From a virus, in the IMG/VR virus record IMGVR_UViG_3300006738_000075: a stretch of DNA of 25,504 bases; one strand, 5' to 3'. The translations under genes were made by a program, and so were the position numbers. Below the pieces are notes generated by a model. It was not told the DNA's origin. It did no database searches and saw only the letters and a program-made list of their open reading frames with translations. This document shows positions 1 to 14,006 of the stretch, piece after piece (the stretch's first letter is position 1; every line of letters starts with the position of its first letter).

Positions 1-61
1 CACACTTGATGTTGGCTGTATAGGGCCTCCCTTGAGAATGTGCTGTAAGAAGCTATAAATA

Positions 62-90
62 TGGGAGATGCGATTGTCTAGTATCTCCCA
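62..90 (+). terminator. Hairpin, possible weak terminator of an upstream gene
   Basis: TGGGAGATGC (62-71) pairs with GTATCTCCCA (81-90), 10 bp with one G.U; followed by an AT-rich stretch rather than a clean U-tract. Confidence 0.3.
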
Positions 91-102
91 CTATAATTAT
101 AT

Positions 103-211
103 TTGACACATACTGGTCACTCCCAATGTTCACAAGAGTCGTGCTCTAGAACTATTGCCAAAGCGTATTTAACCGGAACGGTTTTATGTACGTAGATGGA
201 GTATGTGTCAA
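103..211 (+). ncRNA. Long-stem structured RNA module (module 0)
   Basis: Perfect 12-bp inverted repeat TTGACACATACT (103-114) / AGTATGTGTCAA (200-211) enclosing smaller hairpins (AGAG-tcgtg-CTCT, AACCG-gaa-CGGTT); ends 20 nt before an AGGAGG. Confidence 0.5.
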
Positions 212-241
212 TAACCTTTTAATTAACAAAAGGAGGACGAA

Positions 242-367
242 ATGAAGAGAAGGAAAAGTGTACTGTATTCTATTTCTTCTATTATCTGGAGAATATATAA
301 GAAGGTACAAGCCGGGAAGTTTGAGGCGAGAAGAAAAGAGGATAAAGAGGCTGGTGTAGTAAGGTAA
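242..367 (+). CDS. Small basic hypothetical protein, 41 aa (MKRRKSVLYSISSIIWRIYKKVQAGKFEARRKEDKEAGVVR); below the ORF-track cutoff
   Basis: AGGAGG at 231-236, ATG at 242, TAA at 365-367. Explains the 223..423 minus-strand ORF as a shadow. Confidence 0.65.
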   Translation: MKRRKSVLYSISSIIWRIYKKVQAGKFEARRKEDKEAGVVR

Positions 368-394
368 CTCAAGGTCTCAATTTTTCTTAAAGAA

Positions 395-893
395 GTAGGC
401 AATGAATCTAGCGATGACGTCAACAGATTCGTCTCAGAGTGACGATTCCACGGTTGGCCACTAAGGATAAAACTCCATTGCCTACATATTTTGACATAAC
501 CTCAGGTTGTTGCCCAATAAGGCAAACAAGGAATGGTTAGCGGTACTAACCGTTTACACCTACTGAGATGTCATATATTTACTCTATCAGAGTTAGAGCT
601 TTTGACGAATGTTACTAGCTCACGGAGGGTAGATAGGGTATACTCTGATAGGGTATATTGAACATATGTAATTCTACAGGTGATGGATTGAAAGCCGTTA
701 GCTCATCTCTCGTATTCAAATCCTCAAATGCCTCCAATCTGTCACCTAAAATTAAACCGAGCAAAGACCTCAGATGGTTGAGTAAGGCTCATTAAAGGTA
801 CGTGGATAGCAACCACAGTTCGGTTTAAAGTATTAATAAAATGGTGGCAAATTTTGGCAGTTGCTTAAATGTTGCGACAGCAACAGCCATTTT
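395..893 (+). ncRNA. Tandem array of six sequence-unrelated stem-closed RNA modules
   Basis: Closing helices read by eye: 395-404/476-485 (10 bp); 492-497/568-573 plus 501-505/563-567; 580-593/642-655 (14 bp); 678-690/735-747 (13 bp); 752-760/820-828 (9 bp); 838-845/886-893 (8 bp). Short AU-rich linkers; no ORF of 60 aa or more. Confidence 0.62.
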
Positions 894-914
894 TAATTAT
901 AATCAATAACCAAG

Positions 915-1112
915 ATGGAGAATGATACTATGGCTATGATAAGTGTATTAGACTACATAGAAGGAGAAGAGTTTGCTAAGAAAATGAAAGACCTTTCTTA
1001 TCTTCTCAATAACGAGGAAGAACCAACAGTGTTACATATAGCAACAGCTAAGTTACATAAATGTACTAAACACTGTAAATACCAGAAGTTCAATAAAAAG
1101 GAGTGTAAATGA
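915..1112 (+). CDS. Hypothetical protein, 65 aa
   Basis: ORF in the sense of the block; no clear SD; no recognisable motif. Confidence 0.5.
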   Translation: MENDTMAMISVLDYIEGEEFAKKMKDLSYLLNNEEEPTVLHIATAKLHKCTKHCKYQKFNKKECK

Positions 1113-1162
1113 ACGCATAATGAAAAATAAAATGGCGAGTGAATAAAGGGTTGAAGACCGAT

Positions 1163-1254
1163 AATATTAGAGGACACAATACCTTGTAAGAGACATAAAA
1201 CTAAGTGAGATTGGTTGTAAAGCCTTTGTCTTTGGAATTGTGTCCTTTGATATT
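1163..1254 (+). promoter_or_regulatory. Intergenic long-stem RNA module (possible RNase III processing site)
   Basis: 18-bp helix 1163-1180 / 1237-1254 with two G.U pairs, inner AGACA/TGTCT pair; lies just upstream of the AAGGAG for ORF 1285. Confidence 0.58.
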
Positions 1255-1284
1255 TGAATGGAAGATTAAAAAAAGGAGATAGTT

Positions 1285-1509
1285 ATGACTACACCAATAT
1301 GGATAGCGATAATGTGGTCTACCTTGGCATTTTTAATTTTATGGATTGGTCTAATGATAGTAACAGCGAGCAGTAATTTTAATATGAAATATGCTCTATG
1401 GGTTGTTAAAAGACAAAGAAAAAAGGTCGAAACTGTTGCAAGGTTCAATAAAATGATTAATTCAGAGATTAAAGAGCTTGAAATAGAGCTAAGAAAGGAT
1501 ATACAATGA
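1285..1509 (+). CDS. Small membrane protein, 74 aa
   Basis: AAGGAG upstream; N-terminal hydrophobic helix (IWIAIMWSTLAFLILWIGLMIV) followed by a basic/coiled tail. Confidence 0.75.
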   Translation: MTTPIWIAIMWSTLAFLILWIGLMIVTASSNFNMKYALWVVKRQRKKVETVARFNKMINSEIKELEIELRKDIQ

Positions 1510-1937
1510 CAAAGTTCACAATCGTTATCACGACAATAATAGGACTTATCACATTGGATAAAATCCTCGATAAGTATGGTGATGTTTCTATTAAACAAAC
1601 AAGGAGGTACGTAATGGATAAATCATATATATTAACTAAAGTTATTTTATTATGGCTGGAACACTTTGCGTTAATACTCGGCGGAGCAGTAGGAGGATGG
1701 CTTTTATTTAAGAGAAAGGTAAAAAAGACAGGAAATACTCCTAATCAGTATATGACAAGGGAAGAAGTTAGATCTATTGTAAAAGCAGAAAATAGTTATT
1801 GGGAAGTAGCAGAAGTAAAAGAGATAACTAAAGAAAAACCAAAGGAATTAATATGTCCTGAATACGCTAAACCCTTAATAAATGCATTGGGAGATTATTT
1901 TCTATGGAGTAATTTCCGCACCAAGGTAAAGAGATAA
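1506..1937 (+). CDS. Hypothetical membrane protein, 143 aa (possible internal start at 1614)
   Basis: ATGA overlap with the upstream gene; two hydrophobic segments; in-frame AAGGAGGT (1601-1608) before ATG 1614. Confidence 0.7.
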   Translation: MTKFTIVITTIIGLITLDKILDKYGDVSIKQTRRYVMDKSYILTKVILLWLEHFALILGGAVGGWLLFKRKVKKTGNTPNQYMTREEVRSIVKAENSYWEVAEVKEITKEKPKELICPEYAKPLINALGDYFLWSNFRTKVKR

Positions 1938-1941
1938 GTAT

Positions 1942-2088
1942 ATGGATACTATAACCATAGGATTATCAGTATGTCTTGGATATTTAATGGGGTTTTTAGC
2001 TGGTTGTGTTTGGTGTGATTATAAGCAAGGTAAGAAGGAGGCTAAAAATGAATTCACCAAAAGACAAGAAAAAAGAACCGAAGTCTAA
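1942..2088 (+). CDS. Small single-TM protein, 48 aa (MDTITIGLSVCLGYLMGFLAGCVWCDYKQGKKEAKNEFTKRQEKRTEV); not in track
   Basis: Fills the gap after the 1937 stop; hydrophobic N-terminus plus basic tail typical of small phage membrane proteins. Confidence 0.6.
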   Translation: MDTITIGLSVCLGYLMGFLAGCVWCDYKQGKKEAKNEFTKRQEKRTEV

Positions 2089-2317
2089 TTTTGCAGTTAT
2101 AGGTATGAATGCCAAAAAAAGGATAGATTTTCAAATTGCATTTGGTGTTTATAATACTATGGAAGAGGCAAAGTTCATAAAAGACATAACACAAAAAAAC
2201 TGTCAGCTTAAAATAGTGATAGAATCAACATCAGCAAATGCAGAAGACACGAAAATAGCTTCTCATTTGAAACGTTTACGGGAAAAACAGAGTACCCGAA
2301 TCAAATACTCTGATTAA
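2048..2317 (+). CDS. Hypothetical basic protein, 89 aa (start moved from 2006 to 2048)
   Basis: AAGGAGG at 2035-2041 precedes ATG 2048. Confidence 0.7.
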   Translation: MNSPKDKKKEPKSNFAVIGMNAKKRIDFQIAFGVYNTMEEAKFIKDITQKNCQLKIVIESTSANAEDTKIASHLKRLREKQSTRIKYSD

Positions 2318-2341
2318 ATGCTATAGCAAAGGAGAATAAAA

Positions 2342-2551
2342 ATGCCTAACATAACGTTAGTTTCCTACCATAATGGTAGCGTACCTCTGGAAATGACCGG
2401 AGATACACCAGCAGGAATCGCAGAGAGTTTAAATATCTCTATTAATGAAGTTGAGATATCGGTAGATGGGAAGTCTGTCCCAGCTAATCATAAACTTAGA
2501 GATGATGACCTGGTTGGAATGCAGAAAGCAAAGGTTAAATCAGGTAAGTAA
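2342..2551 (+). CDS. Ubiquitin-like (ThiS/MoaD-type beta-grasp) protein, 69 aa, ending ...KVKSGK
   Basis: Size and pattern (EISVDGKSV...LRDDDLVGM) match beta-grasp Ubls; near-terminal Gly; AAGGAG SD; first gene of an E2-JAB-E1 cluster. Confidence 0.82.
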   Translation: MPNITLVSYHNGSVPLEMTGDTPAGIAESLNISINEVEISVDGKSVPANHKLRDDDLVGMQKAKVKSGK

Positions 2552-2571
2552 TCTGATTTATTCGATGTCTT

Positions 2572-2663
2572 GGATAAGTGATCTTTGGGGAGTATCATCT
2601 ATTGGTACCTGATGAGACGATGTGAAAAAGCGAACGGCGCTCTTGCCTGAGGGTCACTTATCT
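2572..2663 (+). promoter_or_regulatory. Structured intergenic RNA element between Ubl and E2
   Basis: 16-bp helix 2572-2587 / 2648-2663 (9 consecutive Watson-Crick pairs, 5 G.U) with inner hairpins; ends 7 nt before the AGGAGG (2671-2676) of the E2 gene. Confidence 0.6.
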
Positions 2664-2681
2664 TATACCTAGGAGGACAAA

Positions 2682-3995
2682 ATGAAATACTCAGAGTTAA
2701 AACAAAAAGTACTAAAAAGAAATGCATTAATTAAGGTTATTAAGAATATAGTCCCAGTATTAAATGTATCAACAACTATAGTAAAGAAACAAGCTACCCT
2801 ATTAATAAACAAGTTTGATTGGGTAGAAGTAGGAAGAGACTATAAAAGTTTCTATGTCAAATTTGATAATATTAAACTACGTGGTAGTAGAGTATATCAT
2901 TTATGGGACATATATGTTTGTTTCTCTAAGGGAAGTCAAACCTATCCAAAAATAACGTACTATAATATAGCCCCTCATTCCAATGAAGAGGAATTATTAT
3001 GCTATGGAATGGAATACGATTCTATAGCTGATATGGTAAATTATGAATTGCTTATTCCCGCAAGACATCCACATATTTCAACTGGTACTGGTGATGCGTG
3101 TCTTGGTGATTTTGAAAAACCAATATATAATTGTTTAGGTATTTATAATTATGCTGCTGCATTATTAACAATAAAACAATTCCTATTATCTTGGAATGTG
3201 AATAGTCCATATTGGAATGTAAATGATTGTTATAATTACTTTTTTAGGGCAGAACGAGGATATAAATATCTAACATATGCTGAACTAGTATATATATATA
3301 TTAGTGAATGGGGAAGAAAAGCAAATATCGTGGCAGATATATGTGAATCTGTCAAAAGAAAAACTGGCAAATTTGATGAATCTTGGATTGATAAAGTAAA
3401 TAGATTTCAAGTTTGTCAACAGGATAGATTAGATAGATTTCTTGCTGATCTTGTATCTGATGTGGTAATAGATAAACATCCATTCCTTGAAATGTGGCAT
3501 AGAATAGTTAAATTAAAAGGAACTGACTGGACTTGGGGTAGTAATGCTCAAACATCTATAGCTAATTGTGAGAAATTAGACCTTGTTTATAGTGATTTTA
3601 GAACTGTAATTAATTCATTTAGAACTAAAGCTTCACATACTTTCTCAAAATTTGATATAATATTTTATTATTATAATCATCCACTTGGGAATCAATGGAG
3701 ACGTAGTCACTGGGATATAATCATGAAGAAAAGAATGGAACAGATTCTTAATCAGACAATAAATGAGGTAGCATTAACTGGATCATCTGTGCCAGCAGCA
3801 ACAAAAAGAAGATTGCTTAGAAGTCGTGGAATTGAAGCGTTATTTCAAGAAGGAATTAATTTGGATAACGTTGATAAATTACTATACGATTCTGGGATTA
3901 TAGCATATAGAATGGCAATAAAGAACAGCAAAGAGGCAATAAGGAGGCTCAAAAATGAAGTTGACGATTTTAAAGCCAGTTTTGACCAAACTTAA
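2682..3995 (+). CDS. Prokaryotic E2/UBC-like ubiquitin-conjugating protein with long N- and C-terminal extensions, 437 aa
   Basis: RHPHISTGTGDACLG: HPH (129-131) and Cys140 mirror the E2 HPN...C-L motif; followed by E2-like helices; located between Ubl and JAB. Confidence 0.78.
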   Translation: MKYSELKQKVLKRNALIKVIKNIVPVLNVSTTIVKKQATLLINKFDWVEVGRDYKSFYVKFDNIKLRGSRVYHLWDIYVCFSKGSQTYPKITYYNIAPHSNEEELLCYGMEYDSIADMVNYELLIPARHPHISTGTGDACLGDFEKPIYNCLGIYNYAAALLTIKQFLLSWNVNSPYWNVNDCYNYFFRAERGYKYLTYAELVYIYISEWGRKANIVADICESVKRKTGKFDESWIDKVNRFQVCQQDRLDRFLADLVSDVVIDKHPFLEMWHRIVKLKGTDWTWGSNAQTSIANCEKLDLVYSDFRTVINSFRTKASHTFSKFDIIFYYYNHPLGNQWRRSHWDIIMKKRMEQILNQTINEVALTGSSVPAATKRRLLRSRGIEALFQEGINLDNVDKLLYDSGIIAYRMAIKNSKEAIRRLKNEVDDFKASFDQT

Positions 3996-4812
3996 TTATT
4001 TCTTAGAGACATTTCCTAAGAAAGAATGGAGTGGGCCAGGCTGGTTTGCTTGTAAGCAAGAAAAGAATGAATTTCCAGAGGAATTTGTTTTATTGGATTT
4101 TCATCCTCTTGACTTAGGTACTCATAGTTCGACAGAATGGGATTCTAAAGCTATGCTCTCAGTACTTAAGGAGAAGATAAAAATTAATCCTAAATTAAAG
4201 AAATGTTATTTAGGGTTAGTTCACAGTCATCATACTATGGGTGCATTCTTTAGTGATACTGATGATGATACTTTAGAAAAAATGGCACCAGATATTGGAT
4301 TTTATCCAAGTCTTGTGGTTGCAACTGCTAAGGAAAAGTATGCATTTGCAGTGTCATATAAAGATCAGTATCAAATTCCTCATTTGGTAGAATCTGATGA
4401 TGATTGTGAGATATTACCATTAATAAAACCTAAGAAAGACTGGGCGGATATCGCTAAGACACTCAAAAAGACTGCAAAAGCAACAAATCATTGGACAAGG
4501 AAAAATGGACAAGGTATAATCAATTATGGACATGGCGACTATGGTCAAAGCTATGGATATAAACATTTTCCTATTGAAAAAAAGTCTGCCAAAGTGTCAG
4601 TTAATGATATTAAGTCTAGTGAGGAAAGCTATTATCCTGTACTAAGCAACGAAGAAGAAGAAATGGTATATAAATGCTTTGATGCATGGGAAAATAGATT
4701 AATGTCTTGGGATCAAGTCACGCTTAAACTAGAAAAGGTTGGTATAAGAGACCCTCTTGAATTCTTTGGAATGACTTATGATACAAAGGAATATCAATCG
4801 TACAGTAAATAA
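3955..4812 (+). CDS. JAB/MPN+ metallopeptidase (deubiquitinase-like), 285 aa
   Basis: Glu24 (KEWSG) plus H90-S-H92-x7-S100-x2-D103 (VHSHHTMGAFFSDTD), the complete JAMM zinc motif; AAGGAGG SD. Confidence 0.9.
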   Translation: MKLTILKPVLTKLNYFLETFPKKEWSGPGWFACKQEKNEFPEEFVLLDFHPLDLGTHSSTEWDSKAMLSVLKEKIKINPKLKKCYLGLVHSHHTMGAFFSDTDDDTLEKMAPDIGFYPSLVVATAKEKYAFAVSYKDQYQIPHLVESDDDCEILPLIKPKKDWADIAKTLKKTAKATNHWTRKNGQGIINYGHGDYGQSYGYKHFPIEKKSAKVSVNDIKSSEESYYPVLSNEEEEMVYKCFDAWENRLMSWDQVTLKLEKVGIRDPLEFFGMTYDTKEYQSYSK

Positions 4813-4822
4813 GGAGGTTAAT

Positions 4823-5485
4823 ATGGCGCTAGAAAATAGATTCTTACGAAATAAGGATTTAATTCCACAAAACAAACTTGATGAAATAATGGTAATTGGT
4901 TTAGGGGGCATTGGCAGTAATGTCATTGCCCTCTTGTCCATTATGGGATGGGATACTATAATAGGATATGATGAAGATAAGCTTGAAGAACATAACTTAT
5001 CTGGTTGTTTATATCCTATAAATATGTTAGATGTTCCCAAGGCAAAGGCAGCTAGAGATTTGGCATTAGCATTTGGTGCGAAAGATGCTGATATGTCCGA
5101 AATAAATTGGACATATGATTTAGATGTTATGCTTCCCAAAGTAATCTTAGCCACCGATAATATGGAAGTTAGAAGAGATGCTTATGATGAATGGGTAAAA
5201 TTACCTAATCGTCAGCTTTTGATTGATTTACGTATGGATGCACTTGCAATGGAGATTATTACAACAACAAAAGATAATGATTTCTTTAACGAAAGTTGGG
5301 TACCAAGTGCAGAAATAGAGGATGCCCCCTGTACTATGAAACATACAATATTTACAACAAGTATTGTATCTGGTTTAGGGATCAGTCAGTTGTTTAATTC
5401 CCTTGTGAAACTACCATACTATGCGTATATTTGGGTTGGATTAATACCACTTTCAATAAAGAAAACTCATCTAATAAAGGGATAA
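4823..5485 (+). CDS. E1-like ThiF/MoeB-family activating enzyme, 220 aa (start moved from 4778 to 4823)
   Basis: N-terminal RFLRN, GLGGIG nucleotide-binding loop, DEDKLEEHNL, PKAKAA, ATDNMEVR, IDLRM and a candidate thioester Cys170 (APCTM); AAGGAGG before ATG 4823. Lacks CxxC zinc motifs and the Arg of the usual SNLxRQ. Confidence 0.9.
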   Translation: MALENRFLRNKDLIPQNKLDEIMVIGLGGIGSNVIALLSIMGWDTIIGYDEDKLEEHNLSGCLYPINMLDVPKAKAARDLALAFGAKDADMSEINWTYDLDVMLPKVILATDNMEVRRDAYDEWVKLPNRQLLIDLRMDALAMEIITTTKDNDFFNESWVPSAEIEDAPCTMKHTIFTTSIVSGLGISQLFNSLVKLPYYAYIWVGLIPLSIKKTHLIKG

Positions 5486-9929: not shown

Positions 9930-10232
9930 TAAGAAACAGATAAAAAATCCAGTGGCGAGGGAAGGGAATTCTCAAAAGAGTATATGTGACCATGATCGCG
10001 AAAATCTTCGCCCGAAAGGCACAATACTTTAGAGACTAAGAGCTAGATAGTAACAATACTTGATGGTTATACGATAGCATGTAATTCCAGTTTTCGATAC
10101 TCAGTTGTCCAAAGGGGTGGCTGACTAAAGTTAAGGGAAGTAGTTTAAGTACCTAAACTTATCCATGCTGGTTATGTTGGGTTATCTAATCATCAGACAT
10201 TTTCCCTCTAGTAAGATCGCCTCTGTTTCTTA
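9930..10232 (+). ncRNA. Candidate ~300-nt multi-branched non-coding RNA
   Basis: Long-range closure TAAGAAACAGA (9930-9940) / TCTGTTTCTTA (10222-10232), GGCGA/TCGCC and GAGGGAA/TTCCCTC; several internal hairpins; no ORF of substantial length. Confidence 0.6.
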
Positions 10233-11838: not shown

Positions 11839-11923
11839 AGGTTAAAACTAAAGTGCCTAAAACAATAAACGCTCAGGTTAAGGTAAGAAGTAGTTGGCTG
11901 GTGGGTACTACCGAGTTTTAACC
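11839..11923 (+). promoter_or_regulatory. Intergenic stem module upstream of an RBS
   Basis: AGGTTAAA (11839-11846) / TTTAACCT (11916-11923), inner GTAGT/ACTAC; AGGAG follows at 11930. Confidence 0.45.
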
Positions 11924-12770: not shown

Positions 12771-14006
12771 TTAGATTTTTAATAGCGCCTTCCTCCCAAG
12801 AAATTTAGCACCCTTGATACCGAGCTTTAACGCCAACCTACGTGCCTCTTTTAAATCATTTGCTTTAAGTGCTGCAAGAAAGCGTGACCTTAATGATTTC
12901 CTTGCATAAGTCCTAACTTTCTTCATCTTACTAGCATTAGTACTCCTGGCTACATTAAAATGCTGGTTTCTCTGAACATGTGAACTTTTTAGCACATCAT
13001 ATTTATCGCTAACTAAGATGTCATGTAAAAATCCACCACGAGGACCTTTCCACAACTTAATATTTACATTAGTTCCACCGACTAAATAATGAGGTTTATA
13101 GGCTGAGCTATAATTTAACACAAGCTCGCCATTCTTGCCGACACTAAAATTCTTCATAAATTTACTAACTTCTTCTTCTCTAGATGCAACATTGGCATGC
13201 AATCTATTTACGCCTCTAAGACGAGTTCCCATTTGAACTATTCTATTTTCAGCTTGCCCTCTTACTGCATCCAGGTCATGTAAATCAACACCACTTCTCA
13301 ATACTTTATCAGCCATCTTAAACATGTGATCTTTTCTGGCGGCCTTTATAAGCTGACTCTTGTCACCCCCAACATTTAATATGTTACTAACAGATGCCTT
13401 TGCATCACCACTAAGACCCCATTTATTTATTGCACCCTCATGTCCCTTAAAAATAGTCTTTACATCTGTTCTTGTTGGCCTAGAAAGACCCTTCTCAACC
13501 ATTAGAGAGCCACTATACTTGTTACCCATTGTATATCTTACGAGCTGATTTTTTAATATCTCATGTCTACCAAGCCTCTTGTATTTACCAAGACCAAACC
13601 TTTTTGGCTTTTCTCCCTTTAACTCTGCAAATTCAGCAGCTTGTTCTATTTTAATTTGGTTCGCAGCATGATTTAGCTCGGCTGGAGTAGTATGACCCCA
13701 GTCTCTCATAATTTTCTCAGTATATTTTATTTTAGCAGAGTCAGACATACCTTTAGGAAACTCATCTGGATTGTTCTTAATAAATGTCTGAACTTCATTC
13801 CTCCAGTTGTTCAACATGTGACCCAAAAATAATCTACCTTTCTTTGCACCCTTGCTATAAAAATCTTCTATTAAAGTACTTCTCCTCTCTGGAAGAGCAC
13901 TTAACATCCTTGTTATGGGAGTATGTTTTAGAGCATGGGTCCCACCAACTACTGCCCCATAAACACCTGCAGCACCCAATAAACCACGCTCTACATCTCT
14001 GTCCAT
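12771..14006 (-). CDS. Basic putative internal virion protein, 411 aa
   Basis: TAATG overlap with the vRNAP stop; N-terminal Gly/Ala hydrophobic segment; very Lys/Arg-rich. Function inferred from context. Confidence 0.6.
   Translation of the reverse strand: MDRDVERGLLGAAGVYGAVVGGTHALKHTPITRMLSALPERRSTLIEDFYSKGAKKGRLFLGHMLNNWRNEVQTFIKNNPDEFPKGMSDSAKIKYTEKIMRDWGHTTPAELNHAANQIKIEQAAEFAELKGEKPKRFGLGKYKRLGRHEILKNQLVRYTMGNKYSGSLMVEKGLSRPTRTDVKTIFKGHEGAINKWGLSGDAKASVSNILNVGGDKSQLIKAARKDHMFKMADKVLRSGVDLHDLDAVRGQAENRIVQMGTRLRGVNRLHANVASREEEVSKFMKNFSVGKNGELVLNYSSAYKPHYLVGGTNVNIKLWKGPRGGFLHDILVSDKYDVLKSSHVQRNQHFNVARSTNASKMKKVRTYARKSLRSRFLAALKANDLKEARRLALKLGIKGAKFLGRKALLKI

What the first reader, a model, noticed from the sequence alone, without database searches (positions are those of the whole stretch)
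395..893. 500-nt tandem array of six different folded RNAs with no coding content
Seen: six back-to-back 56-91 nt units, each closed by an 8-14 bp helix, most with internal hairpins, joined by short AU-rich linkers (ATATTT recurs before the units at 492 and 580). The units share architecture but not sequence. Imperfections in the closing stems are G.U on the + strand (A.C on the - strand), pointing to + strand RNA folding. Inference: a polycistronic precursor cut by RNase III/E into distinct small RNAs, possibly decoys for RNA-sensing defences or antisense regulators, expressed at the very start of infection. It fits no CRISPR, tRNA or type III antitoxin repeat pattern that I recognise.
Basis: partly seen in the sequence, partly recalled or inferred. 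Interest (0 to 1): 0.82.

Follow-up and report, generated by a model that had tools for sequence, protein, structure and literature searches.

The report
Phage leader cluster of folded RNAs
A gene-free 500-base stretch at the head of an uncultured deep-sea phage's early genes really does fold, on the sense strand, into a chain of five or six different helix-closed RNA modules that match no described RNA family, are gained, lost and swapped like cassettes among related phages, and whose job is still unknown.

Summary
Units 1-5 (395-827) each fold far better than dinucleotide shuffles (z -3.5 to -4.3, 0/200 shuffles). Unit 6 is weak (z -1.4). There is no tRNA, no Rfam family and no credible ORF.

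New evidence:
- Strand: the + strand folds better than the - strand here and in two analogous arrays of syntenic relatives (z -4.5/-3.4, -4.8/-0.9, -4.0/-2.7). Most wobble pairs in the closing stems are G.U on +.
- Cassette behaviour: among near-identical phages one lacks unit 5, one starts at unit 3, and one carries a unit-2 copy nested inside unit 1. Units 0, 6 and 7 are replaced by other hairpins.
- Unit 3 is a wider motif. Three lineages, two of them otherwise unrelated phages, keep an invariant 20-nt purine-rich bulge (GGAGGGUAGAYAGGGUAUAC) between two covarying helices (98.8% of cells paired against 77.6% shuffled; 10 of 19 pairs changed on both sides).
- Two 52-54 kb relatives have about 500-nt arrays of the same design upstream of the same operon, with no sequence similarity.

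Best reading: a sense-strand cluster of independent structured RNA modules in the early leader, probably released at the AU-rich linkers. Transcription, processing, timing and function are untested. The scan has noted similar phage RNA-module chains on other DNA. I class it as a new variant of a known kind.

The parts
395..485 (+). Unit 1. 10-bp closing stem GTAGGCAATG/CATTGCCTAC around an inner hairpin and a long unpaired 3' segment.
   Evidence: Fold z -3.53. The closing stem and 3' half are invariant in all relatives. L014 has an extra hairpin inside it. In L018 that hairpin holds about 200 further nt, including a unit-2 copy, while the outer stem is kept.
492..573 (+). Unit 2. Three-way junction: closing stems TGACAT/ATGTCA and CTCAG/CTGAG with an AAC bulge, and two hairpins.
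   Evidence: Fold z -4.30. The diverged L018 copy (86% identical) keeps the closing stem through a G-C to A-U double change and lengthens it to 11 bp. The inner hairpins are only partly kept.
580..655 (+). Unit 3. 14-bp stem P1, 5-bp hairpin P2, and a 20-nt asymmetric bulge whose last 18 nt, with the first 2 nt of the P1 3' arm, form the invariant 20-mer GGAGGGTAGATAGGGTATAC (624-643).
   Evidence: Fold z -4.31. Homologues in L011/L013 and L021 have the same core and different, still pairing, stems. In the structure-pair count, 98.8% of cells are paired against 77.6% in shuffles, and 10 of 19 pairs changed on both sides. All 6 non-Watson-Crick pairs are G.U on +.
678..747 (+). Unit 4. 13-bp closing stem with two tandem G.U on +. 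The interior is poorly defined.
   Evidence: Fold z -3.55. The predicted small inner hairpin is broken by changes in L020 and L015. An L018 change turns one A.C of the stem extension into A-U.
753..827 (+). Unit 5. 10-bp closing stem, two arms.
   Evidence: Fold z -4.22. It is cleanly absent from L018. In L019 the closing stem and second arm are kept and the first arm is remodelled.
843..891 (+). Unit 6. A weak hairpin pair, terminator-like, followed by TATAAT at 898-903. Probably a boundary element rather than one of the RNAs.
   Evidence: Fold z -1.43. Terminator-like site at 870-885 and promoter-like site at 874-903. In L008, L009, L014-L016 and L018 it is replaced by a longer, different stem-closed hairpin.
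486..491 (+). AU-rich linkers between units: ATATTT here, and also 574-579, 656-677, 748-752 and 828-842.
   Evidence: Read from the sequence. They are unpaired in the folds. That they are cleavage sites is inference only.
103..211 (+). Flanking module U0. 12-bp perfect closing stem, upstream of the small basic ORF 242-367.
   Evidence: Fold z -4.78. Replaced by an unrelated 150-nt structure in L005 and L017.
1163..1254 (+). Flanking module U7. 18-bp closing stem, upstream of ORF 1285-1509.
   Evidence: Fold z -5.66. It is the longest inverted repeat of the window. In L007 three one-sided stem changes keep pairing, two of them only as G.U on the + strand.

Best explanation
Window 395-893 is the core of a roughly 1.1-kb, almost gene-free leader at the head of the rightward early/replication gene block of a marine phage of about 52-54 kb. 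It is most likely transcribed with those genes on the + strand. It folds co-transcriptionally into a chain of independent, helix-closed RNA modules, five solid ones plus a boundary hairpin.

I read each module as a separate functional RNA domain. The modules are held apart by AU-rich single-stranded linkers. Those linkers are the natural targets of host RNase E, and the longer stems could be targets of RNase III. Cutting there would release stable small RNAs of 70-90 nt.

The modules behave as cassettes: they are gained, lost, nested and exchanged between phages. At least one, unit 3, presents an invariant 20-nt purine-rich bulge on a variable helical scaffold. That is the anatomy of a binding site for a protein or small ligand rather than of an antisense RNA.

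Shown here: folding, strand, covariation, modular mosaic, analogous arrays in relatives, and absence from Rfam.

Inferred: transcription, processing, stability, and action in trans.
For: Folding: units 1-5 give z -3.5 to -4.3 with 0/200 shuffles as good. The whole array gives z -4.54.

Strand:
- z on + against -: -4.54/-3.35 in the window, -4.78/-0.89 in L028, -4.04/-2.71 in L024.
- In unit 3 all six non-Watson-Crick pairs are G.U on +.
- In L007 two unit-7 stem changes keep pairing only as G.U on +.

Covariation in unit 3: a covariance-model alignment of three lineages gives 98.8% of cells paired against 77.6% in shuffles (0/500 reach it). 10 of 19 pairs changed on both sides. With the partners slid by 1-3 columns only 26-47% pair. 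0 of 200,000 shuffles of the L011 3' arm pair at all 15 positions.

Other units: the unit-2 closing stem is kept by a double change in L018. Unit 6 is replaced by a different stem-closed hairpin.

Cassette behaviour: unit 5 is missing in L018, units 1-2 are missing in L016, a unit-2 copy is nested inside unit 1 in L018, and U0, U6 and U7 are swapped. The rest of these loci is 98-100% identical.

Analogous arrays: L024 and L028 share the Ubl/E2/JAB/E1-Sak4-SSB-primase block and the giant ORF. They have ORF-free 460-580-nt arrays of 5-7 stem-closed modules upstream of that block.

Not known RNA: no Rfam or tRNA hit in the window or relatives.

Not coding.
Against: There are no expression data of any kind. 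Promoter and terminator calls are weak.

The inner hairpins of units 2, 4 and 5 are not well supported by the few variants available; several changes break predicted pairs.

Units 1-5 are 98-100% identical in most relatives, so covariation could be tested properly only for unit 3.

The unit-4 stem extension fits the - strand better.

More distant relatives (L029, L030) show no such array in the 7-10 kb upstream that was covered, so it is not essential to the clade.

Similar modules sit directly before ORFs (U0, U7, 2572-2663), and unit-3 homologues lie just upstream of genes. That fits a cis role as well as a trans role.
Confidence: 0.45

Rival explanations
1. Cis-acting leader and intercistronic elements. 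On this reading the modules are not RNA genes. They are parts of the early mRNA: processing sites (RNase III/E), 5'/3' end stabilisers, terminators or antiterminators, and recombination-prone regulatory cassettes. The array would be a pile-up of such cassettes that have lost their ORFs.
For: The same kind of module sits 5-30 nt before a start codon or SD at 103-211, 1163-1254 and 2572-2663.

Unit 6 looks like a terminator followed by TATAAT.

Unit-3 homologues lie between genes (L011/L013) or between a sigma70-like promoter and a gene (L021).

The modules next to ORFs are the hypervariable ones and mark the mosaic breakpoints. This resembles the PeSL cassettes of T4-type phages (PMC2839356).
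Against: Five modules stand in a row with no ORF between them.

Units 1-5 are multi-branched and not followed by U runs.

The genes downstream of unit-3 homologues are unrelated to each other, and no expression platform (terminator or SD-sequestering helix) follows the module.

Unlike PeSLs, the modules share no sequence within a genome.
Confidence: 0.3
2. A DNA-level element. The inverted repeats would act as single-stranded or cruciform DNA, for example a replication origin, an injection pause signal like that proposed for the T5 first-step-transfer region, or hairpin promoters or entry sites for the phage's giant injected RNA polymerase (as in N4).
For: The phage encodes a 3170-aa protein with the GADFDGD catalytic signature of two-barrel RNA polymerases.

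The virion polymerase of the crAss-like phage phi14:2 transcribes single-stranded but hardly double-stranded DNA in vitro (10.1101/2020.03.07.982082).

The array lies in a long non-coding region next to the junction with leftward genes.

G.T wobble is also tolerated in DNA hairpins.
Against: A cruciform gives no reason for one strand to fold better, yet all three arrays favour the + strand.

As I recall, N4 promoter hairpins form on the template strand and are 5-7 bp with 3-nt loops, not 70-110-nt multi-branched modules.

The unit-3 core occurs once, not before each early gene.

Unit-3 homologues sit inside operons of phages that lack the giant polymerase.
Confidence: 0.12
3. Selfish miniature palindromic mobile elements (MITE- or REP-like) that insert into non-coding phage DNA and have no function for the phage.
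For: Clean presence or absence of single modules between near-identical phages, nested insertion of one module inside another, spread of unit 3 to unrelated phages, and two adjacent L024 modules with the same termini and different interiors.
Against: Every module is single-copy in its genome.

No transposase or target-site duplication was seen.

In unit 3 the termini vary and the interior bulge is invariant, the reverse of a terminal-inverted-repeat element.

The strand bias of the folding points to RNA.
Confidence: 0.08

Closest known systems
Small RNAs processed out of phage or prophage early transcripts: DicF in the ydfABC-dicF-dicB operon of prophage Qin, and the T4 tRNA cluster with its species 1 and 2 RNAs (from my own knowledge)
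   Same: Non-coding, structured, co-oriented with early genes. Several units lie in a row, joined by short linkers. The units are thought to be freed by host RNases.
   Different: No sequence or Rfam relationship. The units are not tRNAs. They are closed by much longer stems. Processing has not been shown here.
RNase III processing hairpins between early genes of T7-type phages (R0.3, R0.5, R1, R1.1, R1.3; from my own knowledge)
   Same: Helix-closed elements of shared architecture but different sequence, in the early transcript and often just upstream of a start codon. U7 and 2572-2663 have 18-bp stems.
   Different: T7 sites are single irregular hairpins, one per intercistronic gap. Here five multi-branched modules stand together with no cistrons between them, and unit 3 has a sequence-invariant bulge.
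PeSL cassettes (promoter-early stem-loops) of T4-type phages (PMC2839356, PMC4122927)
   Same: Hairpin-containing non-coding cassettes in the variable early regions. They mark the breakpoints of module shuffling between close relatives. Unit 6 pairs a terminator-like hairpin with TATAAT.
   Different: PeSLs are many copies of one conserved promoter-plus-terminator motif. These modules are all different, larger and branched, and most have neither a promoter nor a U run.
Early, abundant, stable long non-coding RNAs from the g004-g006 intergenic regions of crAss-like phage phi14:2 (10.1101/2020.03.07.982082)
   Same: A long gene-free stretch near the start of the rightward early genes of a marine phage with a giant DFDxD-type polymerase. 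Its function is also unknown.
   Different: No sequence similarity was looked for. The first 700 nt of the phi14:2 region fold no better than shuffles (z -0.03). The rest contains a tRNA/tmRNA-like end rather than a chain of stem-closed modules. The giant proteins were not shown to be homologous.
Large ornate phage-associated RNAs (GOLLD, ROOL) and the candidate structured RNAs catalogued from IMG/VR (PMC10690425)
   Same: Unexplained structured RNAs carried by phages and found by comparative analysis.
   Different: No Rfam match to GOLLD, ROOL or any other family. This is a string of separate domains, not one large fold. Whether any module is in the 2023 catalogue could not be checked, because no supplement is held.

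Membership tests
tRNA / tRNA-like gene cluster | Cloverleaf with 7-bp acceptor stem, T-loop and anticodon loop, detectable by ARAGORN or Rfam RF00005 | tested here: not met
   ARAGORN finds 0 genes in the window. There is no RF00005 hit even at E<=10 in 1-1400. The same Rfam model did find a tRNA in L021.
CRISPR array or RNA anti-CRISPR (solitary repeat units) | Repeated 24-48-nt units of near-identical sequence | tested here: not met
   No direct-repeat family touches 395-893. No CRISPR direct-repeat (DR) family of Rfam was matched.
Type III antitoxin RNA (ToxI-like) | Tandem identical repeats of about 34-36 nt next to a toxin endoribonuclease gene | tested here: not met
   No tandem repeat in the region. 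The neighbouring ORFs are tiny and unrelated.
Any Rfam 15 family (including GOLLD, ROOL, IMES, Y RNA-like, ribozymes, riboswitches) | Covariance-model score at or above the family's gathering threshold | tested here: not met
   0 matches at gathering score in the window. At E<=10, the hits that reach into the array, one over unit 4 on the - strand (704-767), one over unit 6 (862-945) and one ending at 428, are all far below their thresholds. Nothing credible was found in the L024 or L028 arrays.
T7-type RNase III processing site | Single irregular hairpin of about two helical turns with an internal bubble, between cistrons, cut by RNase III | tested here: inconclusive
   Closing stems are 10-18 bp. 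The modules are branched, and five of them lie with no cistron between them. Cleavage cannot be tested with these tools.
PeSL cassette (T4-type phages) | Many genomic copies of one conserved motif made of a sigma70 early promoter and a terminator stem-loop | tested here: not met
   The modules share no sequence. Only unit 6 combines a terminator-like hairpin with TATAAT.
PeSL cassette (T4-type phages) | Lies at the breakpoints of insertions, deletions and replacements between close relatives | tested here: met
   The breakpoints between the window and L005, L008, L009, L016, L017 and L018 fall at module edges.
MITE / REP-like palindromic mobile element | Multiple dispersed copies with conserved terminal inverted repeats and target-site duplications | tested here: not met
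   Single copy per genome. In unit 3 the termini vary while the interior is invariant.
N4-type hairpin promoter for a virion RNA polymerase | Short (5-7 bp, 3-nt loop) conserved hairpin on the template strand, repeated before the early transcription units | tested here: not met
   The modules are 70-110 nt and all different, and they fold better on the non-template (+) strand. The defining features are quoted from my own knowledge.
Riboswitch | Conserved aptamer followed by an expression platform, upstream of a consistent gene family | tested here: not met
   Unit 3 has an aptamer-like conserved bulge. It is followed by unrelated genes, or by no gene, and no terminator or SD-masking helix follows it.

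The most novel reading that the evidence does not exclude
The modules are a shuffled armoury of RNA decoys or sponges. Each would be a small, nuclease-resistant aptamer-like RNA made first in infection. Each would bind and neutralise a different host factor, such as a defence nuclease or sensor, an RNA chaperone, or a nucleotide alarm signal.

Unit 3's invariant purine-rich bulge on a variable scaffold would be one such binding site, shared horizontally among unrelated marine phages. This would be an RNA counterpart of the protein anti-defence islands in phage early regions.
Probability: 0.12. Interest if true: 0.9.

Novelty: new variant of a known kind. Interest (0 to 1): 0.58.

Why it matters
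Phage early leaders are usually annotated as empty. Here a phage lineage keeps about 500 nt of densely folded, strand-specific RNA at the head of its early genes. The sequences turn over completely between genera while the design stays. Single modules are traded among strains the way anti-defence genes are.

If the modules are released and act in trans, they would be a new class of phage small RNAs, and possibly RNA-based host-takeover or counter-defence tools.

Unit 3 is in any case a clean new candidate RNA motif: an invariant 20-nt bulge between two covarying helices. It is fit for Rfam-style curation and for ligand or protein pull-downs.

If the modules act only in cis, they still show how early transcripts of an uncultured marine phage group are punctuated, and how non-coding cassettes drive mosaicism.

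Tried and rejected
- **Phage database:** a blastn search of the 'phages' collection with window 1-3000 gave no match. The nearest held record, G001, lacks the region.
- **Exact unit-1 25-mer in viral contigs:** none found.
- **Looser unit-3 core patterns in viral contigs:** only L013 again. The exact core gave 0 hits in 185,579 prokaryote species genomes, so there is no prophage or host target lead.
- **Minus-strand gene:** public callers-318-aa ORFs over the array, but only with TGA read as sense.
  - The TAA/TAG-free run is statistically odd (0/500 shuffles).
  - It is broken in L014, L015, L018, L019 and L020, has no Pfam hit, and shows no third-position bias by my count.
  - The phage uses TGA as a stop, and its long ORFs contain no TGA.
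  - I rejected it as a gene.
- **Window-wide z-score scan:** 90-nt tiles with 12 shuffles were too noisy to rank regions (sd about 1.5). An earlier version timed out. I used the inverted-repeat ranking instead.
- **RNAalifold on the MAFFT alignment of unit-3 types (A4):** it mis-registered the stems and proposed an alternative hairpin inside the core that L021 does not support. I replaced it with the covariance-model alignment A7.
- **Covariance model of unit 3 against the L024, L028, L029, L030 and other loci:** no further members.
- **phi14:2 intergenic region as a homologue:** not similar in design.
- **Giant ORF:** no PHROG, Pfam or PDB sequence match. Only the GADFDGD motif was confirmed.
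- **Supplement of the IMG/VR structured-RNA catalogue:** not held.

Full report
**What the window is**

The 25.5-kb window is part of an uncultured marine phage.
- The + strand holds small early ORFs, a Ubl/E2-like/JAB/E1-like block, a Sak4-like annealing protein, a primase-helicase and a Gam-like protein.
- The - strand holds a late-looking block with a 3170-aa ORF that carries GADFDGD at residue 1525. That ORF has no PHROG, Pfam or PDB sequence match.
- Syntenic complete relatives are 52-54 kb.
- The contig L017 extends the window leftwards. Upstream lie leftward genes, then one rightward gene with a strong intrinsic terminator, then about 460 nt of non-coding DNA. Next come the small basic ORF 242-367 and the array.
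- The finding therefore sits in a leader of about 1.1 kb that contains only that one tiny ORF.

- Folded one by one, units 1-5 reach z-scores of -3.5 to -4.3 against 200 dinucleotide shuffles. No shuffle folds as well.
- The whole of 380-900 gives z -4.54.
- Unit 6 is weak (z -1.43).
- Two more modules of the same design flank the array: 103-211 (z -4.8) and 1163-1254 (z -5.7).
- Four of the 17 longest inverted repeats of the whole window lie in its first 1.3 kb.
- There is no tRNA and no Rfam family at gathering score. At E<=10 the only hits that reach into the array are far below their families' thresholds.
- No repeat family touches the region.
- No + strand ORF is longer than 45 aa, and none has a Shine-Dalgarno sequence.

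**The minus-strand 'gene' is an artefact**

- JGI and ENA pipelines call a 189-318-aa minus-strand gene over the array. It exists only if five to six TGA codons are read as sense.
- The lack of TAA/TAG in that frame is unusual: 0 of 500 shuffles reach it.
- However, the frame is broken in five close relatives and has no Pfam hit.
- The variant sites are spread evenly over its codon positions (my count).
- The phage uses TGA as a stop, and its long ORFs contain no TGA.
- I treat it as a by-product and record the TTA/CTA shortage on the + strand as unexplained.

**Which strand**

The + strand beats its own shuffles by more than the - strand does.

| Array | z on + | z on - |
|---|---|---|
| Window 380-900 | -4.54 | -3.35 |
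| L028 4520-5020 | -4.78 | -0.89 |
| L024 6030-6600 | -4.04 | -2.71 |

- In unit 3, all six non-Watson-Crick pairs in three lineages are G.U on + and would be A.C on -.
- In the L007 copy of module 7, two one-sided stem changes stay paired only as G.U on +.
- The one exception is the inner extension of the unit-4 stem, which would pair better on -.
The folded molecule is the sense strand of the early genes.

**Relatives and mosaicism**

Exact-protein look-ups and one metagenome scan gave about a dozen contigs that are 98-100% identical over units 1-5. Within that near-identity the modules behave as cassettes:
- L018 lacks unit 5 cleanly. It carries a different module of about 215 nt where unit 2 should be.
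- L018 also has a diverged unit-2 copy nested in an insertion inside unit 1, whose outer stem is kept.
- L014 has the smaller first step of that insertion.
- L016 has only units 3-6, starting directly after the stop codon of a protein gene.
- U0, unit 6 and U7 are replaced by unrelated hairpins in several contigs.
- No module is multi-copy in its genome. This argues against a MITE-like element.

**Unit 3 is a wider RNA motif**

- A sensitive BLAST picked up a lone homologue in L011, where the neighbouring protein is 45% identical.
- Scanning for the shared core found L013, from a 55-kb phage without the giant ORF. It also found L021, a phage with no protein similarity to the window.
- All three types keep GGAGGGTAGAYAGGGTATAC. 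The two helices around it change sequence but still pair:
  - P1: 14 bp, 15 bp and 5 bp.
  - P2: 5 bp, 5 bp and 12 bp.
- On the covariance-model alignment, 98.8% of cells form standard pairs against 77.6% in column shuffles (0/500 reach it). 10 of 19 pairs have changes on both sides.
- Sliding the partners by 1-3 columns drops pairing to 26-47%.
- Caveats: there are only three independent lineages, and the alignment was fitted to the model.
- The contexts differ. In the window the module is mid-array. In L011/L013 it lies between genes. In L021 it follows a tRNA, a terminator and a sigma70-like promoter and precedes an unrelated gene.
- No expression platform follows it, so it is not a classical riboswitch.
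- The core has no complement in the window and no exact match on either strand in 185,579 species genomes, so a simple antisense role is unlikely.
- An invariant asymmetric bulge on a variable scaffold is what a protein- or ligand-binding site looks like. That is inference.

**Other units**

- Unit 2 keeps its closing stem in the diverged L018 copy through a G-C to A-U double change. Its inner hairpins are partly eroded.
- Unit 5 keeps its closing stem and second arm in L019, but the first arm is remodelled.
- The small inner hairpin predicted in unit 4 is contradicted by variants.
- The closing stems are therefore well supported. The interiors are not yet.

**The design recurs upstream of the same operon in relatives**

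- L024 and L028 have Sak4 59-65% identical to the window's. They share the gene order from the Ubl block to the giant ORF.
- Each has an ORF-free stretch of 460-580 nt within 0.6-1.5 kb upstream of the Ubl block.
- That stretch folds into 5-7 stem-closed modules joined by AU-rich linkers.
- Neither has detectable sequence similarity to the window's array or any credible Rfam hit.
- Two adjacent L024 modules share their termini but not their interiors.
- More distant relatives (L029, L030) show no such gap in the upstream DNA that was covered, so the feature is common in the clade but not universal.

**What it most likely is**

I commit to a sense-strand cluster of independent structured RNA modules in the early leader. 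I put about 0.8 on 'real, selected, + strand RNA structure'. I put 0.45 on the fuller reading that the modules are released at the linkers as stable small RNAs acting in trans.

The rivals are:
- Purely cis-acting leader and intercistronic elements: 0.30. This is favoured by similar modules sitting just before start codons and by unit 6's terminator-plus-TATAAT look.
- A DNA-level role such as an origin, an injection pause or polymerase entry: 0.12. This is disfavoured by the strand bias.
- Selfish palindromic elements: 0.08. This is disfavoured by single-copy status and by unit 3's conserved interior.

Nothing here tests transcription, timing, cleavage or function.

**Comparison with what is known**

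It works most like the processed non-coding parts of phage early transcripts: DicF, the T4 stable RNAs, and the T7 RNase III sites. In its evolutionary behaviour it resembles the PeSL cassettes of T4-type phages (PMC2839356). It fails the defining tests of each family I could test: tRNA, CRISPR, ToxI, every Rfam family, PeSL repeat identity, MITE copy number, N4 hairpin promoters and riboswitches.

The crAss-like phage phi14:2 makes abundant, stable, early long non-coding RNAs of unknown function from intergenic DNA near the start of its rightward genes (10.1101/2020.03.07.982082). That is a loose precedent. The phi14:2 region does not share this design.

Large catalogues of unnamed candidate structured RNAs from phage contigs exist (PMC10690425). 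An unknown phage RNA is therefore not new as a kind.

Earlier notes of this scan describe comparable chains of RNA modules in other phages. I did not test those notes.

**Verdict**

This is a new variant of a known kind, of moderate to good interest. The best concrete product is the unit-3 motif.

Noticed in passing
window 226-864, minus strand; L009 181-1200: A minus-strand frame runs 213 codons (336 in L009) without TAA or TAG and is interrupted only by TGA. 0 of 500 dinucleotide shuffles reach this. Public gene callers annotate it as a protein, evidently under code 4. It is not kept open in relatives and has no family hit. The cause of the depletion is unexplained.
   Followed up: yes
window 242-367: A very basic 41-aa ORF with a strong SD lies just upstream of the array. 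It appears to be a deletion form of a longer ORF (about 115 aa by my reading of the alignment) seen in L009, L014, L015, L018 and L020, which have about 220 nt extra after window 302. It could be an RNA-binding partner of the array, but this was not examined.
   Followed up: partly
window 14006-23518, minus strand: The 3170-aa ORF has GADFDGDKAF at residue 1525, the catalytic signature of two-barrel RNA polymerases. It has no PHROG, Pfam or PDB sequence match. Homologues 34-37% identical over residues 1100-1900 occur in the 52-54 kb relatives G003 and G004.
   Followed up: partly
window 2572-2663, 9930-10232, 11839-11923: Further stem-closed modules lie in + strand intergenic gaps. 2572-2663 has an 18-bp stem (z -3.3 on +, -2.3 on -). 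The other two are weaker (z about -2).
   Followed up: partly
L021 5940-6520, minus strand as held: An unrelated phage carries, in order: a tRNA that Rfam finds (39.8 bits) but ARAGORN misses; a second tRNA-like copy about 150 nt on; a terminator; a TTGACT-17-TATATT promoter; the unit-3-type module; and a TATAAT only 7 nt before an ATG without SD. The last could be a leaderless mRNA.
   Followed up: no
L024 6163-6236 and 6253-6367: Two adjacent modules share the termini GAGAGCCAATAA ... GTGAGGCTCTC but have different interiors. The motif occurs nowhere else in that 54-kb genome.
   Followed up: partly
L028 4554-4600: The L028 array opens with a long hairpin rich in G.U pairs, followed by a U run. 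It looks like a strand-specific intrinsic terminator for the upstream gene, so that array would need its own promoter.
   Followed up: no
window 2342-5485: The Ubl / E2-like / JAB / E1-like gene block is conserved in order in L024 and L028. L029 and L030 matched the JAB and E1-like genes, followed in all by Sak4, SSB and primase-helicase. Only the JAB domain was confirmed by Pfam here.
   Followed up: partly
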